Shown: positions 36,599-43,597 of the stretch, piece after piece
Position numbering within the stretch: the first letter of the stretch is position 1
Layout of the letters: every line of letters begins with the position of its first letter
IMG/VR virus record: IMGVR_UViG_3300033182_000499
Span: 5,833 to 69,832 of that record
Strand: one strand, 5' to 3'
Source of the DNA: a virus
DNA length: 64,000 nucleotides
Position numbers and translations under genes: made by a program
Notes under the pieces: generated by a model
The model's input: only the letters and a program-made list of their open reading frames with translations
Databases searched by the model: none
What the model was told of the DNA's origin: nothing

Positions 36599-37529
36599 TA
36601 GAAACTAAAAAATTGGTTTGCCTTTAAGTTGATGTTCTCAAAACTTTCCCAATCAAGGGCTTCGTAGAAATCAAGTATCTTCTTTCTTAACAGTCTATCA
36701 AACATTTTGTCGTAATCCGCATATGTGGATATAAAATCTATAACCTCTTGTGGGTCATCACTACCTTTGAGTGCCATAATGTCTAGGTTTAGTGGGTTTT
36801 GTTTAAGATACATCCACACAATCTTTTCACCATCGGTGATAGGTGGGATTTTATCTTCTAATCCCATTTCCTTTAAGAAGTTGTTGTAGTAAATGGCCGA
36901 CTTGACGTGAGCAGGTGTACCTTTCTTTACATCACTCAACCCACCTCTAATTGAATATTTCTTTATACCCTTTACACCTGTGGGTTTACCTACTTCCATA
37001 AATGGTCGTTTGGTTAGACTGTCTTTAAAGTCCAATAAATTACTATCCACCACATCTTTCTCAACACCATTGAGTAAGTCCATCAACATACTCTTCATAA
37101 ATGTCTTAAATGCCTTTGGAAAGTCAGACCTAACCACATCTAATCCTTTGTAATCAATATCATCTTTGGTTACACCGTTCTCCCAAATGATTTTCTGTAC
37201 GTATCGTTTCTTGGAAATCCATATACCTCTACGTGCGATATTCTCTTGTTTAATCTCAAACCGATGTGAACCTTGTAGGTTAAACATACGTTTGGCCATT
37301 ACGTCATAACTTTTGTTGATAAAGTTTTGTACTTCTTGTGCTACATCTGCAATCAAAGAACACATAAGTTCTTCATCGTCAACATCAATGTCAGGATTTT
37401 TGGCTCTAATTACAGGTATTGCCGATAAGAATGTAGAGTCGGTTAGGTGTCCGTGTATATAACCCACTCAAACGGATTACTTACACGGACATTAGAGCCT
37501 CCAACTCTTTTAATCTTTTTTATTTTCAT
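36598..37529 (-). CDS. Family B DNA polymerase, C-terminal subunit (motif C and thumb), predicted to need a +5-nt ribosomal hop (about 308 aa)
   Basis: ATG 37529 gives MKIKKIKRVGGSNVRVSNPFEWVIYTDT-stop; ACC(37448-46) TA ACC(37443-41) then GAC TCT resumes DSTFLS...KKRY...KGLDVVRSD. Confidence 0.8.
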
Positions 37530-37647
37530 ATACTTTTATATTATTACAATAATCAATTTCTACAAATTTACAATCAAGTTCTTTCATAATGTTTTCTCTT
37601 CTCAAAACATCTCTTTCACTTAAACTACCATCGTGGTTGAAGTTATG
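37510..37647 (-). pseudogene. C-terminal remnant of a Vsr/DUF559-like homing endonuclease
   Basis: Frame without an N-terminal start: HNFNHDGSLSERDVLRRENIMKELDCKFVEID; lies between the two polymerase halves. Confidence 0.55.
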
Positions 37648-37649
37648 AG

Positions 37650-41206: not shown

Positions 41207-41234
41207 TTTATATTGTTTTAGTTTATGTTATAGT

Positions 41235-42605
41235 TTATCCAAAATCGTTTGAAACAGTTGGTGTCTTTTTGTATAATTCATACTTTTGTTTTAACTGTTT
41301 CTTTTCGTAAGTTTGTTGTTCTTGTTCTACTTTTTTGTTGTCTGCAGGTGTGTCAAAGATGTGAAACTTACCAATGTTAGTATCCATTGATGCATTAAAC
41401 GTCATACCGTCAGGCCCAAATCTGTTCTTTATAATATGAACTCTAGCTCTATTATTCAACTTATCAACGTCTTTCCTAATTACACTCATAATAAAGTCAG
41501 CAGTCATAACCTTTTTGTATGAATCAGCAATACCCGAAGCACCAATCACATCACTACCCAATGAATCTCTATTGGTTTGTGTAGCAGTCCAAATTGGTAT
41601 TCCTAACTTACCTGATATACCACGTAATTCTTCATAGATATTACCCATATCGTCATAACTATTCCCCGTGGATTTCTTACCACTATCCAATAAGTCTGCG
41701 TAGTCTAAAACAATTAGGTCAACTTTTTTGAGTTGAACCACTTTCTCAATAAATGCTTCTAGTCCGTGAGTAGATACTGAACGAGTAGGGAATTGTCTAA
41801 TATCCAAATTACCCGGCACCTGTCCTAGTTTTTCTACCAATAAACTACTATCCTCTTGTAAGACCGAAAATGGTTTACCTGTTAGGATAGTGTCATATCG
41901 TCTAGCAACATAGTCATCACTCAACTCCAATGTGATATGTAATACATTGTGTCCGTGTGTAACTGCGTTGTATCCTATTTGACACAACACCCAAGTTTTA
42001 CCAATACCACTTGGAGCGGCCACTACACCAATCTCCCCCGAACCCAAACCACCTGCGGTTATATCATCAATGGTTTTCATATACACAGGTGTGGCTTTTC
42101 TTACATTGTTTAATCTAGCCTCAACGTGGTCAACCCAATTGTGTCCAATCTCTTTACTCATCCCTGCTTTAAGTGCATCATCCACCAAGGTTTTAATCTC
42201 ATCATACTCACCTCGTTTGAGTAAGTCGGTTGATTGTAGAATGGCTTTCTTTAACTTTTGATTCTTACAGAAAGATTCAAATTGGTCTTTCACAAACTCT
42301 ACGTCATCAAGTTTATCTGTGGTGTAGATTTCTTTGATTGACTTTTTAACACTTTCTTGGAACGAGGATGATTGGATGGATTTAACACTAAGAGCCAATA
42401 CATCCATCGTAATACATTTCTTATACTCTGTATAATATGTAATTACTTGTTCTACTACCCATTGGTGTTCTTCTCTCTCAAAATAACTTGACTCTACAAT
42501 ATCAAAGATGTCTTGTAAAAACTTTACATCGTGTATGAGAGAGTATATAACTTTTATTTGAAATGATTTACCAAACTCTGAGAGTTTATCTATGTATGCG
42601 ACCAT
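41235..42605 (-). CDS. Replicative DnaB-like helicase (T4 gp41-like)
   Basis: GGLGSGEIGVVAAPSGIGKT, HITLE, IVLDYADL, WTATQTNR, KNRFGP. Confidence 0.95.
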   Translation of the reverse strand: MVAYIDKLSEFGKSFQIKVIYSLIHDVKFLQDIFDIVESSYFEREEHQWVVEQVITYYTEYKKCITMDVLALSVKSIQSSSFQESVKKSIKEIYTTDKLDDVEFVKDQFESFCKNQKLKKAILQSTDLLKRGEYDEIKTLVDDALKAGMSKEIGHNWVDHVEARLNNVRKATPVYMKTIDDITAGGLGSGEIGVVAAPSGIGKTWVLCQIGYNAVTHGHNVLHITLELSDDYVARRYDTILTGKPFSVLQEDSSLLVEKLGQVPGNLDIRQFPTRSVSTHGLEAFIEKVVQLKKVDLIVLDYADLLDSGKKSTGNSYDDMGNIYEELRGISGKLGIPIWTATQTNRDSLGSDVIGASGIADSYKKVMTADFIMSVIRKDVDKLNNRARVHIIKNRFGPDGMTFNASMDTNIGKFHIFDTPADNKKVEQEQQTYEKKQLKQKYELYKKTPTVSNDFG

Positions 42606-43597
42606 TATTTTTTAACGTTTATGAATGTCTTTGAAATCCAATCGGGAAAGTTATGGAATGCGTGGGACAAACCATCTTTACTGAATCTAAGTAATAAACC
42701 CATCTTATTCAACTTTGGTGGGTCTTCGTTCATAAACGCTTGTATTTTAAGTTTTGCATTAGTGTTAAAGTCTAAAAGGTGTAAGTTCATCAATTGATTG
42801 TTTCGTTCTACTTTGTCAAACTCTTCAATCAATCGTCCGTATAGGGAATACGTGTCTTTGTTTTCTTCTGCGTATTCTTTTATTTCATCAAGTGTGTATT
42901 TCTTTTCTTCAGTCAAAAATGGAAACATCTTAGCCAATCGTTTTACTCCAAAACCTTTGACTCCATCAATGTTGTCTGATTTATCACCATCTAGTATTCT
43001 ATTGATAGTAATGTTATGTGGGTGTATTTTGTATTCTTCTAATACTCTGTCAATATCATACATTTTCTTTTTAGTTGGTGCCCATACATTTGTGTTATGA
43101 TTCACCAATTGTAAAAAGTCTTTGTCTGAACTCATTATCACAGTTTCTTTGTCTTGTAAATAATTCAAACAAATATAAGCAATAATATCATCAGCCTCTA
43201 AGTTATCAACTGCGATTACTTTGATAGGTAAGTAATCTAAGTAAGCACCAAGAGTGAGAAGCTGTCGTTTCATATTCTGTTCTCGTTCTTCGTCAGTATC
43301 AAAGTCAAAAAGTCTGTTCATCCTCATAGTCATCTTTCTACCTTTTTTATAGTCAGGAAAGATTTTCTTTCGTTTGGATGAACCACCCCTACCATCAAAT
43401 ACTACTATAACTTCCGTGGCTTCTGTATCTCGTATAACCGAACCTATTGACCTCAAAGAACCCACTAACCCCCCGACAGGTTCTCCATTGTTGTCGGTGA
43501 CGGGGTTAGTTGCGTAGGCTCTGAAAAATAAGTTTAGTCAAAGGCCATCAACAACAAGCACTTTCTCGTTATTGATGGCACCCTCCTTATTGCTCAT
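42605..43597 (-). CDS. 5'-3' exonuclease / RNase H (FEN-like), predicted to need a +6-nt hop over an in-frame TGA (about 328 aa)
   Basis: ATG 43597 gives MSNKEGAINNEKVLVVDGL-TGA-L-NLFFRAY...GGLVGSLRS...VVFDG...YK..R...EADD...SSDKDFLQL...GDKSDNIDGV. Confidence 0.85.

What the first reader, a model, noticed from the sequence alone, without database searches (positions are those of the whole stretch)
37402..43597. Candidate programmed stop-hop translational bypass shared by two replication genes
Seen: the family B polymerase C-subunit and the 5'-3' exonuclease are each broken, near their 5' end (after codons 28 and 19), inside a conserved catalytic motif. Both breaks have the same layout: a 36-42 nt hairpin whose last base abuts codon X, then codon X, a stop, a same-amino-acid codon X' 5-6 nt downstream, and the rest of the motif. 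Removing exactly the hop restores the family consensus (YTDT|DS; VDGL|NL). Established: matched take-off/landing codons with a stop and nearby RNA structure define T4 gene 60 bypassing (50-nt gap); hairpin-associated byps occur in Magnusiomyces mitochondria. Inference: this phage gates DNA replication through minimal hairpin-stimulated hops. These could act as a switch (release-factor or tRNA status, a phage factor), or could disrupt homing-element target sites. Two independent genes with the same geometry argue against chance mutation or assembly error. I do not know of a described 5-6 nt multi-gene bypass system of this kind.
Basis: partly seen in the sequence, partly recalled or inferred. 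Interest (0 to 1): 0.96.

Follow-up and report, generated by a model that had tools for sequence, protein, structure and literature searches.

The report
Two short ribosome-hop gaps in phage genes
Two replication genes of this marine phage are each interrupted, inside a catalytic motif, by 5 or 6 bases containing a stop codon; these bases came in with selfish nuclease cassettes, and ribosomes most likely hop over them, a miniature natural form of the rare phage T4 gene 60 bypass.

Summary
The split PolB C-subunit reads ...YTDT, then ACC-TAA-CC-GAC. The 5'-3' exonuclease reads ...VDGL, then CTT-TGA-CTA-AAC. Each break lies directly 3' of a strong hairpin. Neither is an assembly error or a recent pseudogene.

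- **Exonuclease gap in other contigs:** it recurs at the same codon junction in 51 further IMG/VR loci. Together with the window, 47 loci long enough to compare form 11 clusters at 80% aa identity, which are 29-79% identical to each other. Every downstream ORF that ends inside its locus is full length, and all 20 distinct sequences have a hairpin.
- **PolB gap in other lineages:** it recurs in three more (P0001, P0009 and the L120 group).
- **Selection:** dN/dS is 0.02-0.06.
- **Origin:** both gaps mark the 3' edge of homing-endonuclease cassettes. The endonuclease gene is intact in relatives and reduced to a remnant here. This is the architecture of the T4 mobA/gene 60 element.

The best reading is a translational hop of +5 or +6 nt (confidence 0.68). 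No experiment or RNA data support it yet. This scan has noted similar short hop gaps on other DNA, including PolB motif C. I found no published natural case.

The parts
37650..39428 (-). PolB N-subunit (592 aa) with an extra C-terminal tail of about 48 aa that unsplit relatives lack
   Evidence: ORF. Pfam DNA_pol_B_exo1 and DNA_pol_B. Unsplit relatives: L003-L005 and Mel-JY01.
37510..37649 (-). Remnant of the 3' end of a homing-endonuclease-like gene, including the 31-aa ORF 37510-37605
   Evidence: The DNA aligns with the 3' end of the 290-aa ORF that lies between polN and polC in L120.
37446..37529 (-). PolB C-subunit, first 28 codons (MKIKKIK... N-terminal tail, then ...EWVIYTDT), ending at take-off codon ACC
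   Evidence: In L120 the ATG lies inside the end of the endonuclease-like ORF.
37448..37491 (-). Hairpin: 10-bp basal stem plus 8-bp inner stem, with its 3' end at the take-off codon
   Evidence: z -6.5. The L120 lineage has a 13-bp version with one compensatory pair.
37441..37445 (-). 5-nt coding gap TAACC. The stop TAA is at 37445-37443, and the landing ACC (37443-37441) overlaps it.
   Evidence: Intact relatives lack it. P0001 and P0009 imply the same gap, and the L120 group shows it directly.
36598..37440 (-). Rest of the PolB C-subunit (280 codons from GAC TCT)
   Evidence: dN/dS against L003 is 0.038.
43598..43678 (-). Upstream part of the exonuclease cassette: a terminator-like hairpin, an AT-rich leader, and about 30 nt homologous to the 3' end of the L034 endonuclease gene
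   Evidence: In the gap-less strain 43540-43678 is replaced by 17 letters.
43541..43597 (-). 5'-3' exonuclease, first 19 codons (MSNKEGAINNEKVLVVDGL), ending at take-off codon CTT
   Evidence: The Pfam 5_3_exonuc_N match runs through the TGA from profile position 1.
43544..43579 (-). Hairpin: 15 bp with a 6-nt loop, its 3' end abutting CTT
   Evidence: All 20 distinct gapped relatives have a hairpin that pairs the Asp-Gly codons.
43535..43540 (-). Stop TGA (43540-43538) and landing codon CTA (43537-43535). Either these 6 nt or the equivalent CTTTGA are skipped.
   Evidence: The gap-less allele reads GAT GGA CTA AAC. 79 of 79 intact homologues have no extra residue here.
42605..43534 (-). Rest of the exonuclease (309 codons from AAC)
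   Evidence: dN/dS against L008 is 0.024.

Best explanation
Each gap is the inner edge of a homing-endonuclease cassette that invaded a replication gene.

**PolB cassette.** It split the gene. It added a C-terminal tail to the N-subunit and a new start plus an MKIK... tail to the C-subunit. It placed 5 extra bases (TAACC) inside motif C. The endonuclease gene has since been deleted down to its last roughly 135 nt.

**Exonuclease cassette.** It replaced everything between the uvsX stop and the DGL|N junction with a new leader, a new N-terminus and 6 extra bases. Only about 30 nt of the endonuclease gene remain.

**Inferred purpose.** The extra bases break the nuclease's target site, which protects the carrier genome.

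**Inferred decoding.** The ribosome reaches the take-off codon (ACC or CUU) with a stop followed by C in the A site. The upstream hairpin has its 3' strand still inside the ribosome and re-zips as mRNA leaves. This pulls the mRNA forward by 5 or 6 nt. The peptidyl-tRNA then re-pairs with the matching landing codon (ACC or CUA), and decoding resumes at GAC or AAC. The products carry the family motifs YTDTDS and VDGLNLFFRAY.

**Shown:** the anatomy, the conservation, the covariation, the selection and the cassette origin.

**Inferred:** the hop itself, its efficiency, the hairpin's role and the immunity function.
For: **1. Recurrence of the exonuclease gap.**
- Three pattern scans found gapped exonuclease genes in 3 of 22, 12 of 16 and 36 of 36 hits.
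- A survey that fixed no gap sequence took the 80 best of 594 tblastn-confirmed stretches. It found 79 intact genes and 1 (L117) broken at the same junction by a different 5-nt gap, TTG-TAG-TG.
- 47 of the 52 gapped loci form 11 clusters at 80% aa identity; the other five gave too little protein. The clusters are 29-79% identical to each other.
- Every downstream ORF that ends inside its locus is 307-326 aa.

**2. Recurrence of the PolB gap.**
- P0001 (83% identity) and P0009 (45%) start with out-of-frame N-termini, MGYIHGHLTDS and MVHLHGYLTDS. These imply a Thr (ACY, taken from the family's invariant Thr; the letters also allow Ile) take-off codon, a TAA or TGA stop, and a Thr landing codon.
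- Six metagenome contigs (48% aa identity to the window) carry ACC-TAA-CT.

**3. Selection.**
- Window against gap-less relatives: omega 0.024 for the exonuclease (74 synonymous, 10 non-synonymous differences) and 0.038 for polC.
- Two gapped polC genes, L120 against L124: omega 0.063.

**4. Motif spacing.**
- 79 of 79 intact exonuclease homologues have D-x-x-N with nothing inserted.
- The short upstream ORFs keep the family's ...L(V/I)(V/I)DGL in frame with an ATG in 10 of 11 clusters; the representative of the eleventh (L133) is cut by the contig end.

**5. Hairpin.**
- All 20 distinct gapped exonuclease sequences fold at -21.1 to -29.1 kcal/mol, with the base of the stem on the Asp-Gly codons.
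- The Gly third base co-varies with its partner: GGC/GCC, GGT/ACC, GGA/TCC, and GGG/TCC as a wobble pair.
- 5 of 5 gapped against 13 of 83 intact genes reach -22 kcal/mol or lower.
- The sense strand folds better than the antisense strand in 14 of 19 sequences.

**6. Restart is not available in L120.** There is no ATG, GTG or TTG in the downstream frame between the endonuclease stop and the gap. The next start lies 25 codons past motif C.

**7. Cassette origin.**
- An endonuclease-like ORF lies between uvsX and the exonuclease in 6 of 11 gapped clusters, and its motif appears in none of the 79 intact loci. Its family matches are REase_MTES_1575 at E about 1e-7 and homing or HNH endonuclease PHROGs. 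The L034 and L117 copies are 34% identical, E 2e-51.
- A 290-aa endonuclease-like ORF lies between polN and polC in L120 and L124. The window's spacer aligns with its 3' end.
- The L117 and L116 alleles are 95% identical in protein, and their similarity breaks exactly at the gap.
- Contigs from four seawater metagenome runs carry the allele lacking both cassettes. The joints are 37400 to 37812 and 43539 to 43679.

**8. Literature.**
- The T4 MobA element splits a gene, adds C- and N-terminal tails and carries a bypass that blocks self-cleavage. The nuclease is often lost while the bypass stays (Manning & Atkins preprint, sections 12 and 19 read).
- Pairing of mRNA as it exits the ribosome has been proposed to drive forward bypassing (Wills et al. 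preprint, passages).
Against: - No protein, RNA or reporter data exist. No RNA run was listed for this DNA.
- The hairpin is not unique to gapped genes. 13 of 83 intact exonuclease genes have a comparable one, some ending at the same Leu codon. It may therefore predate the gap or serve another purpose.
- Five of 19 hairpins fold at least as well on the antisense strand, so a DNA-level role is not excluded.
- The CTT-TGA-CTN set came from patterns that fixed those letters. [quoted passage not shown]
- In the TTG-TAG-TG type the landing triplet GTG matches only 2 of 3 bases. It is also a possible restart codon overlapping the stop.
- In the window's polC a GTG lies 22 nt upstream of the stop in the downstream frame, so restart cannot be excluded here.
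- L034, the closest gapped exonuclease relative, has a helicase with two internal deletions. That contig may be defective or misassembled.
- The contig is only 36% complete by CheckV's estimate, so a second polymerase or nuclease elsewhere cannot be ruled out.
Confidence: 0.68

Rival explanations
1. Recoding occurs but is not a hop. The exonuclease UGA is read through, which inserts two residues (X-Leu) into the DGL|N motif. The PolB gap is passed by a +2 shift, which gives one extra Thr, or by a -1 shift.
For: The exonuclease TGA is in frame. UGA followed by C is a leaky context (recalled, from no call). The Pfam model aligns through the stop.
Against: - 79 of 79 intact homologues have no insertion at this junction.
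- The TTG-TAG-TG type at the same junction needs a frame change, so readthrough cannot be the general solution.
- PolB motif C (YxDTDS) is uninterrupted in every intact relative examined.
- The +1 frame after CUU U closes at once in the window (GAC TAA).
Confidence: 0.12
2. Termination followed by restart. The short N-terminal peptides and the large C-terminal fragments are made separately. The fragments either reassemble or work alone, as split phage genes with cassette-derived tails are known to do.
For: - polN and polC are already separate polypeptides.
- A GTG lies in the downstream frame 22 nt before the pol stop.
- In the TTG-TAG-TG type a GTG overlaps the stop.
- An earlier scan note on a similar PolB gap appears to raise restarting; its listed text is cut off after 'Restartin'.
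Against: - In L120 no start codon exists in the downstream frame between the endonuclease stop and the gap, and the next start lies 25 codons past motif C.
- In the exonuclease the next in-frame start codon differs between lineages: codon +25 in the window and +36 in L018, read from the sequences printed. A restart there would remove NLFFRAY.
- The window's GTG comes from the conserved Trp codon, and intact relatives carry TTG at the same spot. It is not a dedicated start.
- A restart product lacks the first catalytic Asp of DTDS or the Asp of VDG.
Confidence: 0.1
3. The genes are dead. The gaps are scars of selfish cassettes in defective genomes, or the functions are supplied from elsewhere in the genome.
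For: - The contig is 36% complete.
- L034 has a damaged helicase.
- Gap-less alleles dominate in four metagenome runs.
Against: - Omega is 0.02-0.06, including between two gapped genes.
- All complete downstream ORFs are full length in 11 clusters that are 29-79% identical.
- Upstream mini-ORFs keep the motif and an ATG.
- The neighbouring genes in L018 and L117 are intact.
Confidence: 0.04
4. The 5 or 6 nt are removed at the nucleic-acid level. This could be slipped-strand deletion between the short direct repeats in some genomes, or removal or slippage at the RNA level at the foot of the hairpin.
For: - The take-off and landing codons are also direct repeats (ACC..ACC, CT..CT).
- The hairpins are also inverted repeats in the DNA, and 5 of 19 fold as well on the antisense strand.
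Against: - The gap is stably inherited across lineages down to 29% aa identity.
- The laid metagenome contigs showed no deletion of just the gap. They showed only the whole-cassette-less allele, although contigs hide rare variants.
- No Rfam family reaches its gathering score in 36000-45000.
- No known mechanism removes 5-6 nt from bacterial mRNA (my knowledge).
Confidence: 0.06

Closest known systems
Phage T4 gene 39 / mobA / gene 60 element with its 50-nt translational bypass (Manning & Atkins 2022 bioRxiv 10.1101/2022.08.31.505936: abstract and sections 12 and 19 read. Huang 1988 and Bonocora 2011 appear only as cited there or as I recall them.)
   Same: - A free-standing homing-endonuclease cassette invades a conserved motif of a replication gene and splits it.
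- It adds C- and N-terminal tails and a new start.
- It places a coding gap a few dozen codons into the second ORF, at codon 28 here.
- A stop codon follows the take-off codon, and the take-off and landing codons match.
- There is a 5' stem-loop.
- The nuclease is often lost while the gap persists.
- Other relatives keep the split but have no gap (L006/L007, P0003, P0005).
   Different: - The gap is 5-6 nt, not 50.
- There is no stem-loop or Shine-Dalgarno element inside the gap.
- The hairpin abuts the take-off codon.
- The target genes differ (PolB motif C and the FEN-type exonuclease).
- The nucleases differ (PD-(D/E)xK-like with NUMOD3-like repeats, not MobA).
- In the exonuclease the gene is not split; its 5' end is replaced.
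Synthetic 'stop-hops' in E. coli (Weiss et al. 1987, as described in Atkins et al. 2016, PMC5009743; passages read)
   Same: Matched codons flank a stop, so that 9 nt specify one amino acid. This is exactly the CUU-UGA-CUA layout of the exonuclease.
   Different: - Those were artificial constructs with low efficiency and no stimulator.
- The review states that no natural in-frame stop-hop was known.
- Here the sites are natural, conserved and lie behind a strong hairpin.
prfB (RF2) programmed +1 frameshift site CUU UGA C (recalled, from no call)
   Same: The exonuclease take-off context is the same heptanucleotide. It has CUU in the P site and the RF2-specific UGA followed by C in the A site.
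   Different: The +1 frame is closed in the window (GAC TAA). The productive frame is reached only by moving 6 nt. No Shine-Dalgarno element lies 3 nt upstream.
Mitochondrial byps of Magnusiomyces capitatus (as described in PMC5009743; passages read)
   Same: Short inserts in many genes are corrected during translation, and these elements are thought to be mobile.
   Different: They occur in mitochondria and are 27-55 nt long (recalled). An unused codon rather than a stop sits in the A site, and they are said to be largely independent of context.

Membership tests
Programmed translational bypass (gene 60 type) | A non-coding gap interrupts a conserved ORF, and removing it restores the family sequence | tested here: met
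   YTDT|DS and VDGL|NLFFRAY. Intact relatives are contiguous at both sites (79 of 79).
Programmed translational bypass (gene 60 type) | A stop or slow codon lies immediately 3' of the take-off codon | tested here: met
   TAA-C in pol and TGA-C in the exonuclease. TAG in the TTG-TAG-TG type.
Programmed translational bypass (gene 60 type) | [quoted passage not shown] | tested here: met
   - ACC/ACC in the window and ACC/ACT in L120.
- A Thr landing codon, and a Thr take-off codon if the family's invariant Thr holds, are implied for P0001 and P0009, which were found by homology and not by pattern.
- CTT/CTN in the exonuclease, but that set was selected by pattern.
- TTG/GTG matches only 2 of 3 bases.
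Programmed translational bypass (gene 60 type) | [quoted passage not shown] | tested here: inconclusive
   The hairpin is present in 20 of 20 distinct gapped exonuclease sequences, with covariation, and in both pol lineages for which DNA is held. A comparable hairpin also occurs in 13 of 83 intact genes. Its function is untested.
Programmed translational bypass (gene 60 type) | A nascent-peptide signal | not testable with these tools
   The polC N-terminus is basic (MKIKKIKR), but ungapped split relatives share it. The exonuclease upstream peptide is only 19 aa.
Programmed translational bypass (gene 60 type) | One polypeptide is made across the gap | not testable with these tools
   No proteomic or reporter data exist. 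No RNA run was listed.
Homing-endonuclease mobile cassette (MobA/MobE-like) | A free-standing endonuclease gene next to the gap, patchy among close relatives, with similarity breaking at the cassette edges | tested here: met
   (6 of 11 gapped clusters; motif absent from the 79 intact loci). Edges are shown. Remnants in the window are shown. Nuclease activity and target site are untested.
prfB-type +1 programmed frameshift | The +1 frame after CUU U encodes the functional product | tested here: not met
   The +1 frame reads GAC TAA in the window and in L018.
Stop-codon reassignment or selenocysteine | In-frame stops occur genome-wide, or a suppressor tRNA or SECIS is present | tested here: not met
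   All three stop codons end long ORFs. No tRNA gene lies in the window. No Rfam family reaches its gathering score. The pol gap also shifts the frame.
Intron or intein | A self-splicing RNA, or a Hint domain with its splice junction residues | tested here: not met
   The gaps are 5-6 nt long, and no intron family was found. The pol tails align with a nuclease-cassette end, not with an intein. A true intein lies 3 nt away in LR756508.

The most novel reading that the evidence does not exclude
These are natural, efficient 'stop-hops'. A strong hairpin abutting the take-off codon, a weak stop and a matching codon 5-6 nt downstream would form a minimal, portable bypass module. At least two unrelated homing-endonuclease families would use it as self-immunity inside catalytic motifs of phage replication genes. 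The exonuclease version alone was found in 52 viral loci counting the window; the 47 long enough to compare form 11 clusters. It uses the same CUU-UGA-C context as the RF2 frameshift site, so its efficiency may track the host's RF2 level.
Probability: 0.6. Interest if true: 0.85.

Novelty: new variant of a known kind. Interest (0 to 1): 0.78.

Why it matters
Translational bypassing has one well-studied natural bacterial example, T4 gene 60 and its homologues. The 2016 recoding review states that no natural in-frame stop-hop was known. My three literature searches found none published since.

This genome offers two minimal versions in essential enzymes. Dozens of natural sequence variants are already available: different stems, loops, landing codons, gap lengths and stop codons. 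They amount to a ready mutational series for testing how mRNA pairing at the ribosome exit drives forward slippage.

The finding also extends the 'nuclease plus bypass as self-immunity' idea beyond topoisomerase genes. It has a practical consequence too. Gene callers split or truncate such genes, as in the window's 289-aa and 286-aa ORFs and in P0001 and P0009. Essential phage enzymes are therefore likely to be mis-annotated as broken or N-terminally wrong.

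Tried and rejected
- **Phage collection, DNA searches.** No near or distant DNA match. Only distant protein matches turned up.
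- **Exact pol pattern in IMG/VR.** 0 hits.
- **Relative of P0009 in IMG/VR.** Only one ungapped split relative, L039. I hold no DNA for P0001 or P0009, so their hairpins could not be checked.
- **Alternative genetic code.** Rejected.
- **Suppressor tRNA.** None in the window.
- **Rfam on 36000-45000 at E up to 1.** Three matches, all below their gathering scores (AgrB, two snoRNAs). I took them as chance.
- **Downstream hairpin as a barrier.** It is present in the window's exonuclease (z -3.8) but also in gap-less L008. It is absent in L018 and L117, and absent after the pol gap (z -0.03). It is not a consistent part.
- **GGAGG upstream of the hairpins.** It occurs in the window's pol and exonuclease, and in L034, L018 and L117. 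It is absent in L120 and weak in L022. It is also present in intact L116 and L111, where it encodes K-E-G. It is not specific to gapped genes.
- **Split-intein reading of the pol tails (another first-reader note).** Rejected, because the tails align with a nuclease cassette.
- **RNA evidence.** No RNA holder was listed.
- **Laid contigs from four runs.** They covered mainly the cassette-less strain. Bin 37514-37727 had depth 0 in three runs and 2.4 in the fourth, so the window's own allele was not independently re-read there.
- **Ungapped codon comparisons involving L121 and L123.** These are invalid because of indels, and I dropped them.
- **Loci left out of clustering.** Five loci (L022, L145, L159, L170, L173) gave fewer than 100 aa.
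- **Supplements of papers.** Not seen. The Manning & Atkins supplementary tables might list short-gap variants.
- **The 'part of it fell' flag on a sister claim.** I could not find which part fell.

Full report
**What is there.**

The window is bases 5833-69832 of a 69.8-kb linear IMG/VR virus record. CheckV estimates it to be 36% complete. Nearly all genes lie on the minus strand, in a T4-like replication and morphogenesis layout.

The family B polymerase is in two pieces.
- The N-subunit runs 37650-39428.
- A C-subunit ORF starts at ATG 37529 and reads 28 codons (MKIKKIKR...EWVIYTDT).
- It then meets TAA at 37445-37443.
- The rest of the protein (DSTFLS..., 280 codons) follows in another frame from 37440.

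The sequence is ACC TAA CC GAC. Moving 5 nt puts the same ACC triplet in the P site and restores YTDTDS.

The 5'-3' exonuclease starts at ATG 43597 and reads 19 codons (...VLVVDGL). It meets TGA at 43540-43538 and then continues in frame as CTA AAC... (LNLFFRAY...). Moving 6 nt from CTT to CTA restores VDGLNLFFRAY.

Each take-off codon is directly preceded by the 3' arm of a strong hairpin.
- The pol 81-nt fold is -36.7 kcal/mol, z -6.5.
- The exonuclease fold is -29.5 kcal/mol, z -4.2.
- 0 of 200 shuffles matched either.

Pfam confirms both gene identities. The exonuclease model aligns through the TGA from profile position 1.

All three stop codons end long ORFs. The window has no tRNA gene, and no Rfam family reaches its gathering score around the sites. 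A contig-wide scan found no third site of this kind.

**Not an error and not decay.**

The closest relative is one IMG/VR strain represented by two contigs, seen as L003/L008 and L004/L009. It has 93% aa identity in polC and 98% in the exonuclease.
- Its polymerase is unsplit and ungapped.
- Its exonuclease is ungapped, with a short N-terminus.
- Codon comparison with it gives 74 synonymous against 10 non-synonymous differences in the exonuclease (omega 0.024). In polC the figures are 98 against 30 (omega 0.038).

The downstream parts have therefore stayed under strong purifying selection.

The gaps themselves recur in other assemblies. For the exonuclease:
- Three pattern scans of IMG/VR gave gapped exonuclease genes in 3 of 22, 12 of 16 and 36 of 36 hits.
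- A homology survey that fixed no gap sequence took the 80 best of 594 confirmed stretches. It found 79 intact genes and one (L117) broken at exactly the same DGL|N junction by a different gap, TTG TAG TG. That gap is 5 nt long and changes the frame.
- 47 of the 52 gapped loci form 11 clusters at 80% aa identity, which are 29-79% identical to each other. Five loci gave too little protein to cluster.
- Every downstream ORF that ends inside its locus is 307-326 aa.
- In 10 of the 11 clusters the short upstream ORF begins with Met and keeps the family's ...L(V/I)(V/I)DGL; the representative of the eleventh is cut by the contig end.

For the polymerase:
- A protein search returned two C-subunits whose N-termini are the out-of-frame reading of the same site. 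These are P0001 (83% identity, MGYIHGHLTDS...) and P0009 (45%, MVHLHGYLTDS...).
- Both imply a Thr take-off codon (Thr from the family's invariant Thr; the letters would also allow Ile), a TAA or TGA stop and a Thr landing codon.
- Other split C-subunits (P0003, P0005, P0006, P0016, P0029) are ungapped.
- One metagenome pattern scan gave 10 hits. Six are polC genes of a lineage 48% identical to the window, carrying ACC TAA CT GAT.
- Two of these, L120 and L124, differ at 9% of bases with omega 0.063. This is selection acting while the gap was present.

**Where the gaps came from.**

*Exonuclease.* In L034 (74% relative) and in L117, a 310-341-aa ORF sits between uvsX and the exonuclease.
- It matches REase_MTES_1575 (E about 1e-7, below Pfam's cut-off), weakly matches NUMOD3, and matches PHROGs named homing or HNH endonuclease.
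- The two copies are 34% identical, E 2e-51.
- Its motif occurs upstream of the gap in 6 of 11 gapped clusters, and in none of the 79 intact loci.
- L117 and its intact sisters L116 and L111 are 95% identical in exonuclease protein and 86-91% identical in flanking DNA. Similarity is lost from the uvsX stop exactly to the gap.
- The window has no such ORF. Its sequence from about 30 nt before the ATG through the gap aligns with L034, where those 30 nt are the end of the nuclease gene.

*Polymerase.* L120 and L124 carry a 290-aa ORF between polN and polC.
- It has a zinc-finger-like start, NUMOD3-like repeats and a nuclease-like C-terminal region, and it matches the same PHROG 22677.
- The polC ATG lies inside its last codons.
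- The window's 140-nt spacer (37510-37649, including a 31-aa ORF) and its polC start align with that 3' end at the DNA level.

*Metagenome contigs.* Logan contigs of four seawater metagenome runs from four studies carry the allele lacking both cassettes.
- 37401-37811 is replaced by 82 letters, which gives the unsplit polymerase.
- 43540-43678 is replaced by 17 letters, which gives GAT GGA CTA AAC.

So both gaps are the inner edges of homing-endonuclease cassettes whose nuclease genes have decayed in this phage.

This matches, feature for feature, what Manning and Atkins describe for the T4 MobA element (bioRxiv 10.1101/2022.08.31.505936, sections 12 and 19 read).
- The gene is split.
- C- and N-terminal tails are added.
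- A bypass lies a few dozen codons into the second ORF and blocks self-cleavage.
- The nuclease is frequently lost while the bypass is retained.
- Some lineages keep the split but not the bypass.

A true intein sits 3 nt away in the same motif of the uncultured phage LR756508. This shows that motif C is a homing hotspot.

**How the genes are probably read.**

A hop is the only reading that gives the universal motif spacing in all variants.
- 79 of 79 intact exonuclease genes have nothing inserted at DGL|N.
- Readthrough would add two residues. It also cannot serve the frame-shifting TTG-TAG-TG type or the polymerase.
- Restart is excluded for L120. It has no start codon in the downstream frame between the nuclease stop and the gap, and the next one lies 25 codons beyond motif C.
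- Restart is not excluded for the window's polC, where a GTG lies 22 nt upstream. But that GTG derives from the conserved Trp codon and also exists, as TTG, in intact genes.

The hairpin is a constant companion of the gap.
- All 20 distinct gapped exonuclease sequences fold at -21.1 to -29.1 kcal/mol.
- The base of the stem lies on the Asp-Gly codons, and the stem ends at or within the take-off codon.
- The synonymous third base of the Gly codon co-varies with its partner: GGC/GCC, GGT/ACC, GGA/TCC, and GGG/TCC as a wobble pair.
- Between the window and L120, the pol stem shows one double compensatory change (ACG/CGT to ACC/GGT).
- In L117 the stem register differs from that of its intact sister L116, so that it abuts the take-off codon.
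- The sense strand folds better than the antisense strand in 14 of 19 sequences. These sequences are related, so the Wilcoxon p of 0.002 overstates the case.

The proposed mechanism has three steps.
1. Termination is slow, because C follows the stop in the window's pol site, the L120 pol lineage and every CTT-TGA exonuclease gene seen here. (The weakness of that context is recalled, not tested.)
2. The hairpin re-zips as its 3' arm leaves the ribosome and drags the mRNA forward.
3. The peptidyl-tRNA re-pairs 5 or 6 nt downstream.

This agrees with the 'exiting-mRNA pairing as driver' proposal for gene 60 (Wills et al., bioRxiv 10.1101/2024.12.09.627546, passages read).

The exonuclease context CUU UGA C is the same heptanucleotide as the RF2 frameshift site (recalled). 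However, the +1 frame closes at once here (GAC TAA).

**Caveats.**
- Nothing here shows the protein.
- The hairpin also occurs in 13 of 83 intact exonuclease genes. It may predate the gaps, be a relic of lost gaps, or have another role.
- The CTT-TGA-CTN set was found with patterns that fixed those letters. Codon matching in that set is therefore not independent evidence.
- The L034 helicase lacks its Walker A segment and a second segment, so that contig may be defective or misassembled.
- The laid metagenome contigs re-read the cassette-less strain rather than the window's allele.
- No RNA run was listed.

**Known or new.**
- The 2016 review by Atkins et al. (PMC5009743, passages read) describes synthetic stop-hops in which 9 nt specify one amino acid. 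It says no natural in-frame stop-hop was known.
- Three full-text searches found no later description of short gaps in phage polymerase or exonuclease genes. I could not see paper supplements.
- Within this scan, earlier notes report many similar short hop gaps on other DNA. These include 4-, 5-, 7- and 8-11-nt gaps in PolB motif C, and nuclease cassettes with 20-27-nt gaps. They are unchecked AI notes, and I did not test them. One sister claim is flagged as having partly fallen, and I could not learn which part.

I therefore class this as a new variant of a known kind. It is a gene-60-type, nuclease-borne bypass reduced to 5-6 nt, found in two new target genes, and present twice in one genome.

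**Verdict.**
- Cassette origin is well supported (about 0.9).
- A translational hop is the best-supported decoding (0.68).
- Regulation of replication is unsupported.

Noticed in passing
window 36404-36598 (-): A 64-aa ORF has an ATG that overlaps the polC stop (TAATG). It matches only the DNA-binding part of HNH or other endonuclease PHROGs (phrog_59, E 1.3e-5; phrog_6156, E 2e-4). It may be another remnant of a homing endonuclease next to the polymerase.
   Followed up: partly
L034 3976-5182 (IMG/VR relative): The DnaB-like helicase downstream of the gapped exonuclease lacks two segments relative to the window: about 95 nt including Walker A, and a net 73 nt or so. Both change the frame. The contig may be defective or misassembled.
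   Followed up: partly
L002 (LR756508.1), around 3500 and frame 0 of the locus: The polB of this 484-kb uncultured phage carries an intein inserted between YTD and TDS, 3 nt from the window's gap position. The neighbouring clamp-loader-like gene also seems to carry an intein in its Walker A region.
   Followed up: no
window 41236-41239: In three of the four laid metagenome runs, the related strain has 1452 extra letters just downstream of the helicase gene. This could be another mobile insert that the window lacks.
   Followed up: no
L069, L100, L102, L075, L101, L011 and other intact exonuclease loci: 13 of 83 ungapped exonuclease genes have a hairpin of -22 kcal/mol or lower in the 70 nt ending at the DGL Leu codon. 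Several end at that codon. They could be relics of lost gaps, pre-adaptations, or a regulatory structure of the gene family.
   Followed up: partly
window 43631-43656 (-): A GC-rich terminator-like hairpin followed by a T run lies between uvsX and the exonuclease. It is present only in the cassette-bearing allele.
   Followed up: no
window 6590-7408 and 20056-20775 (-): Two further free-standing endonuclease-like genes lie elsewhere in the contig, one GIY-YIG-like and one HNH-like as judged from their motifs. The contig scan found no gap next to either.
   Followed up: partly
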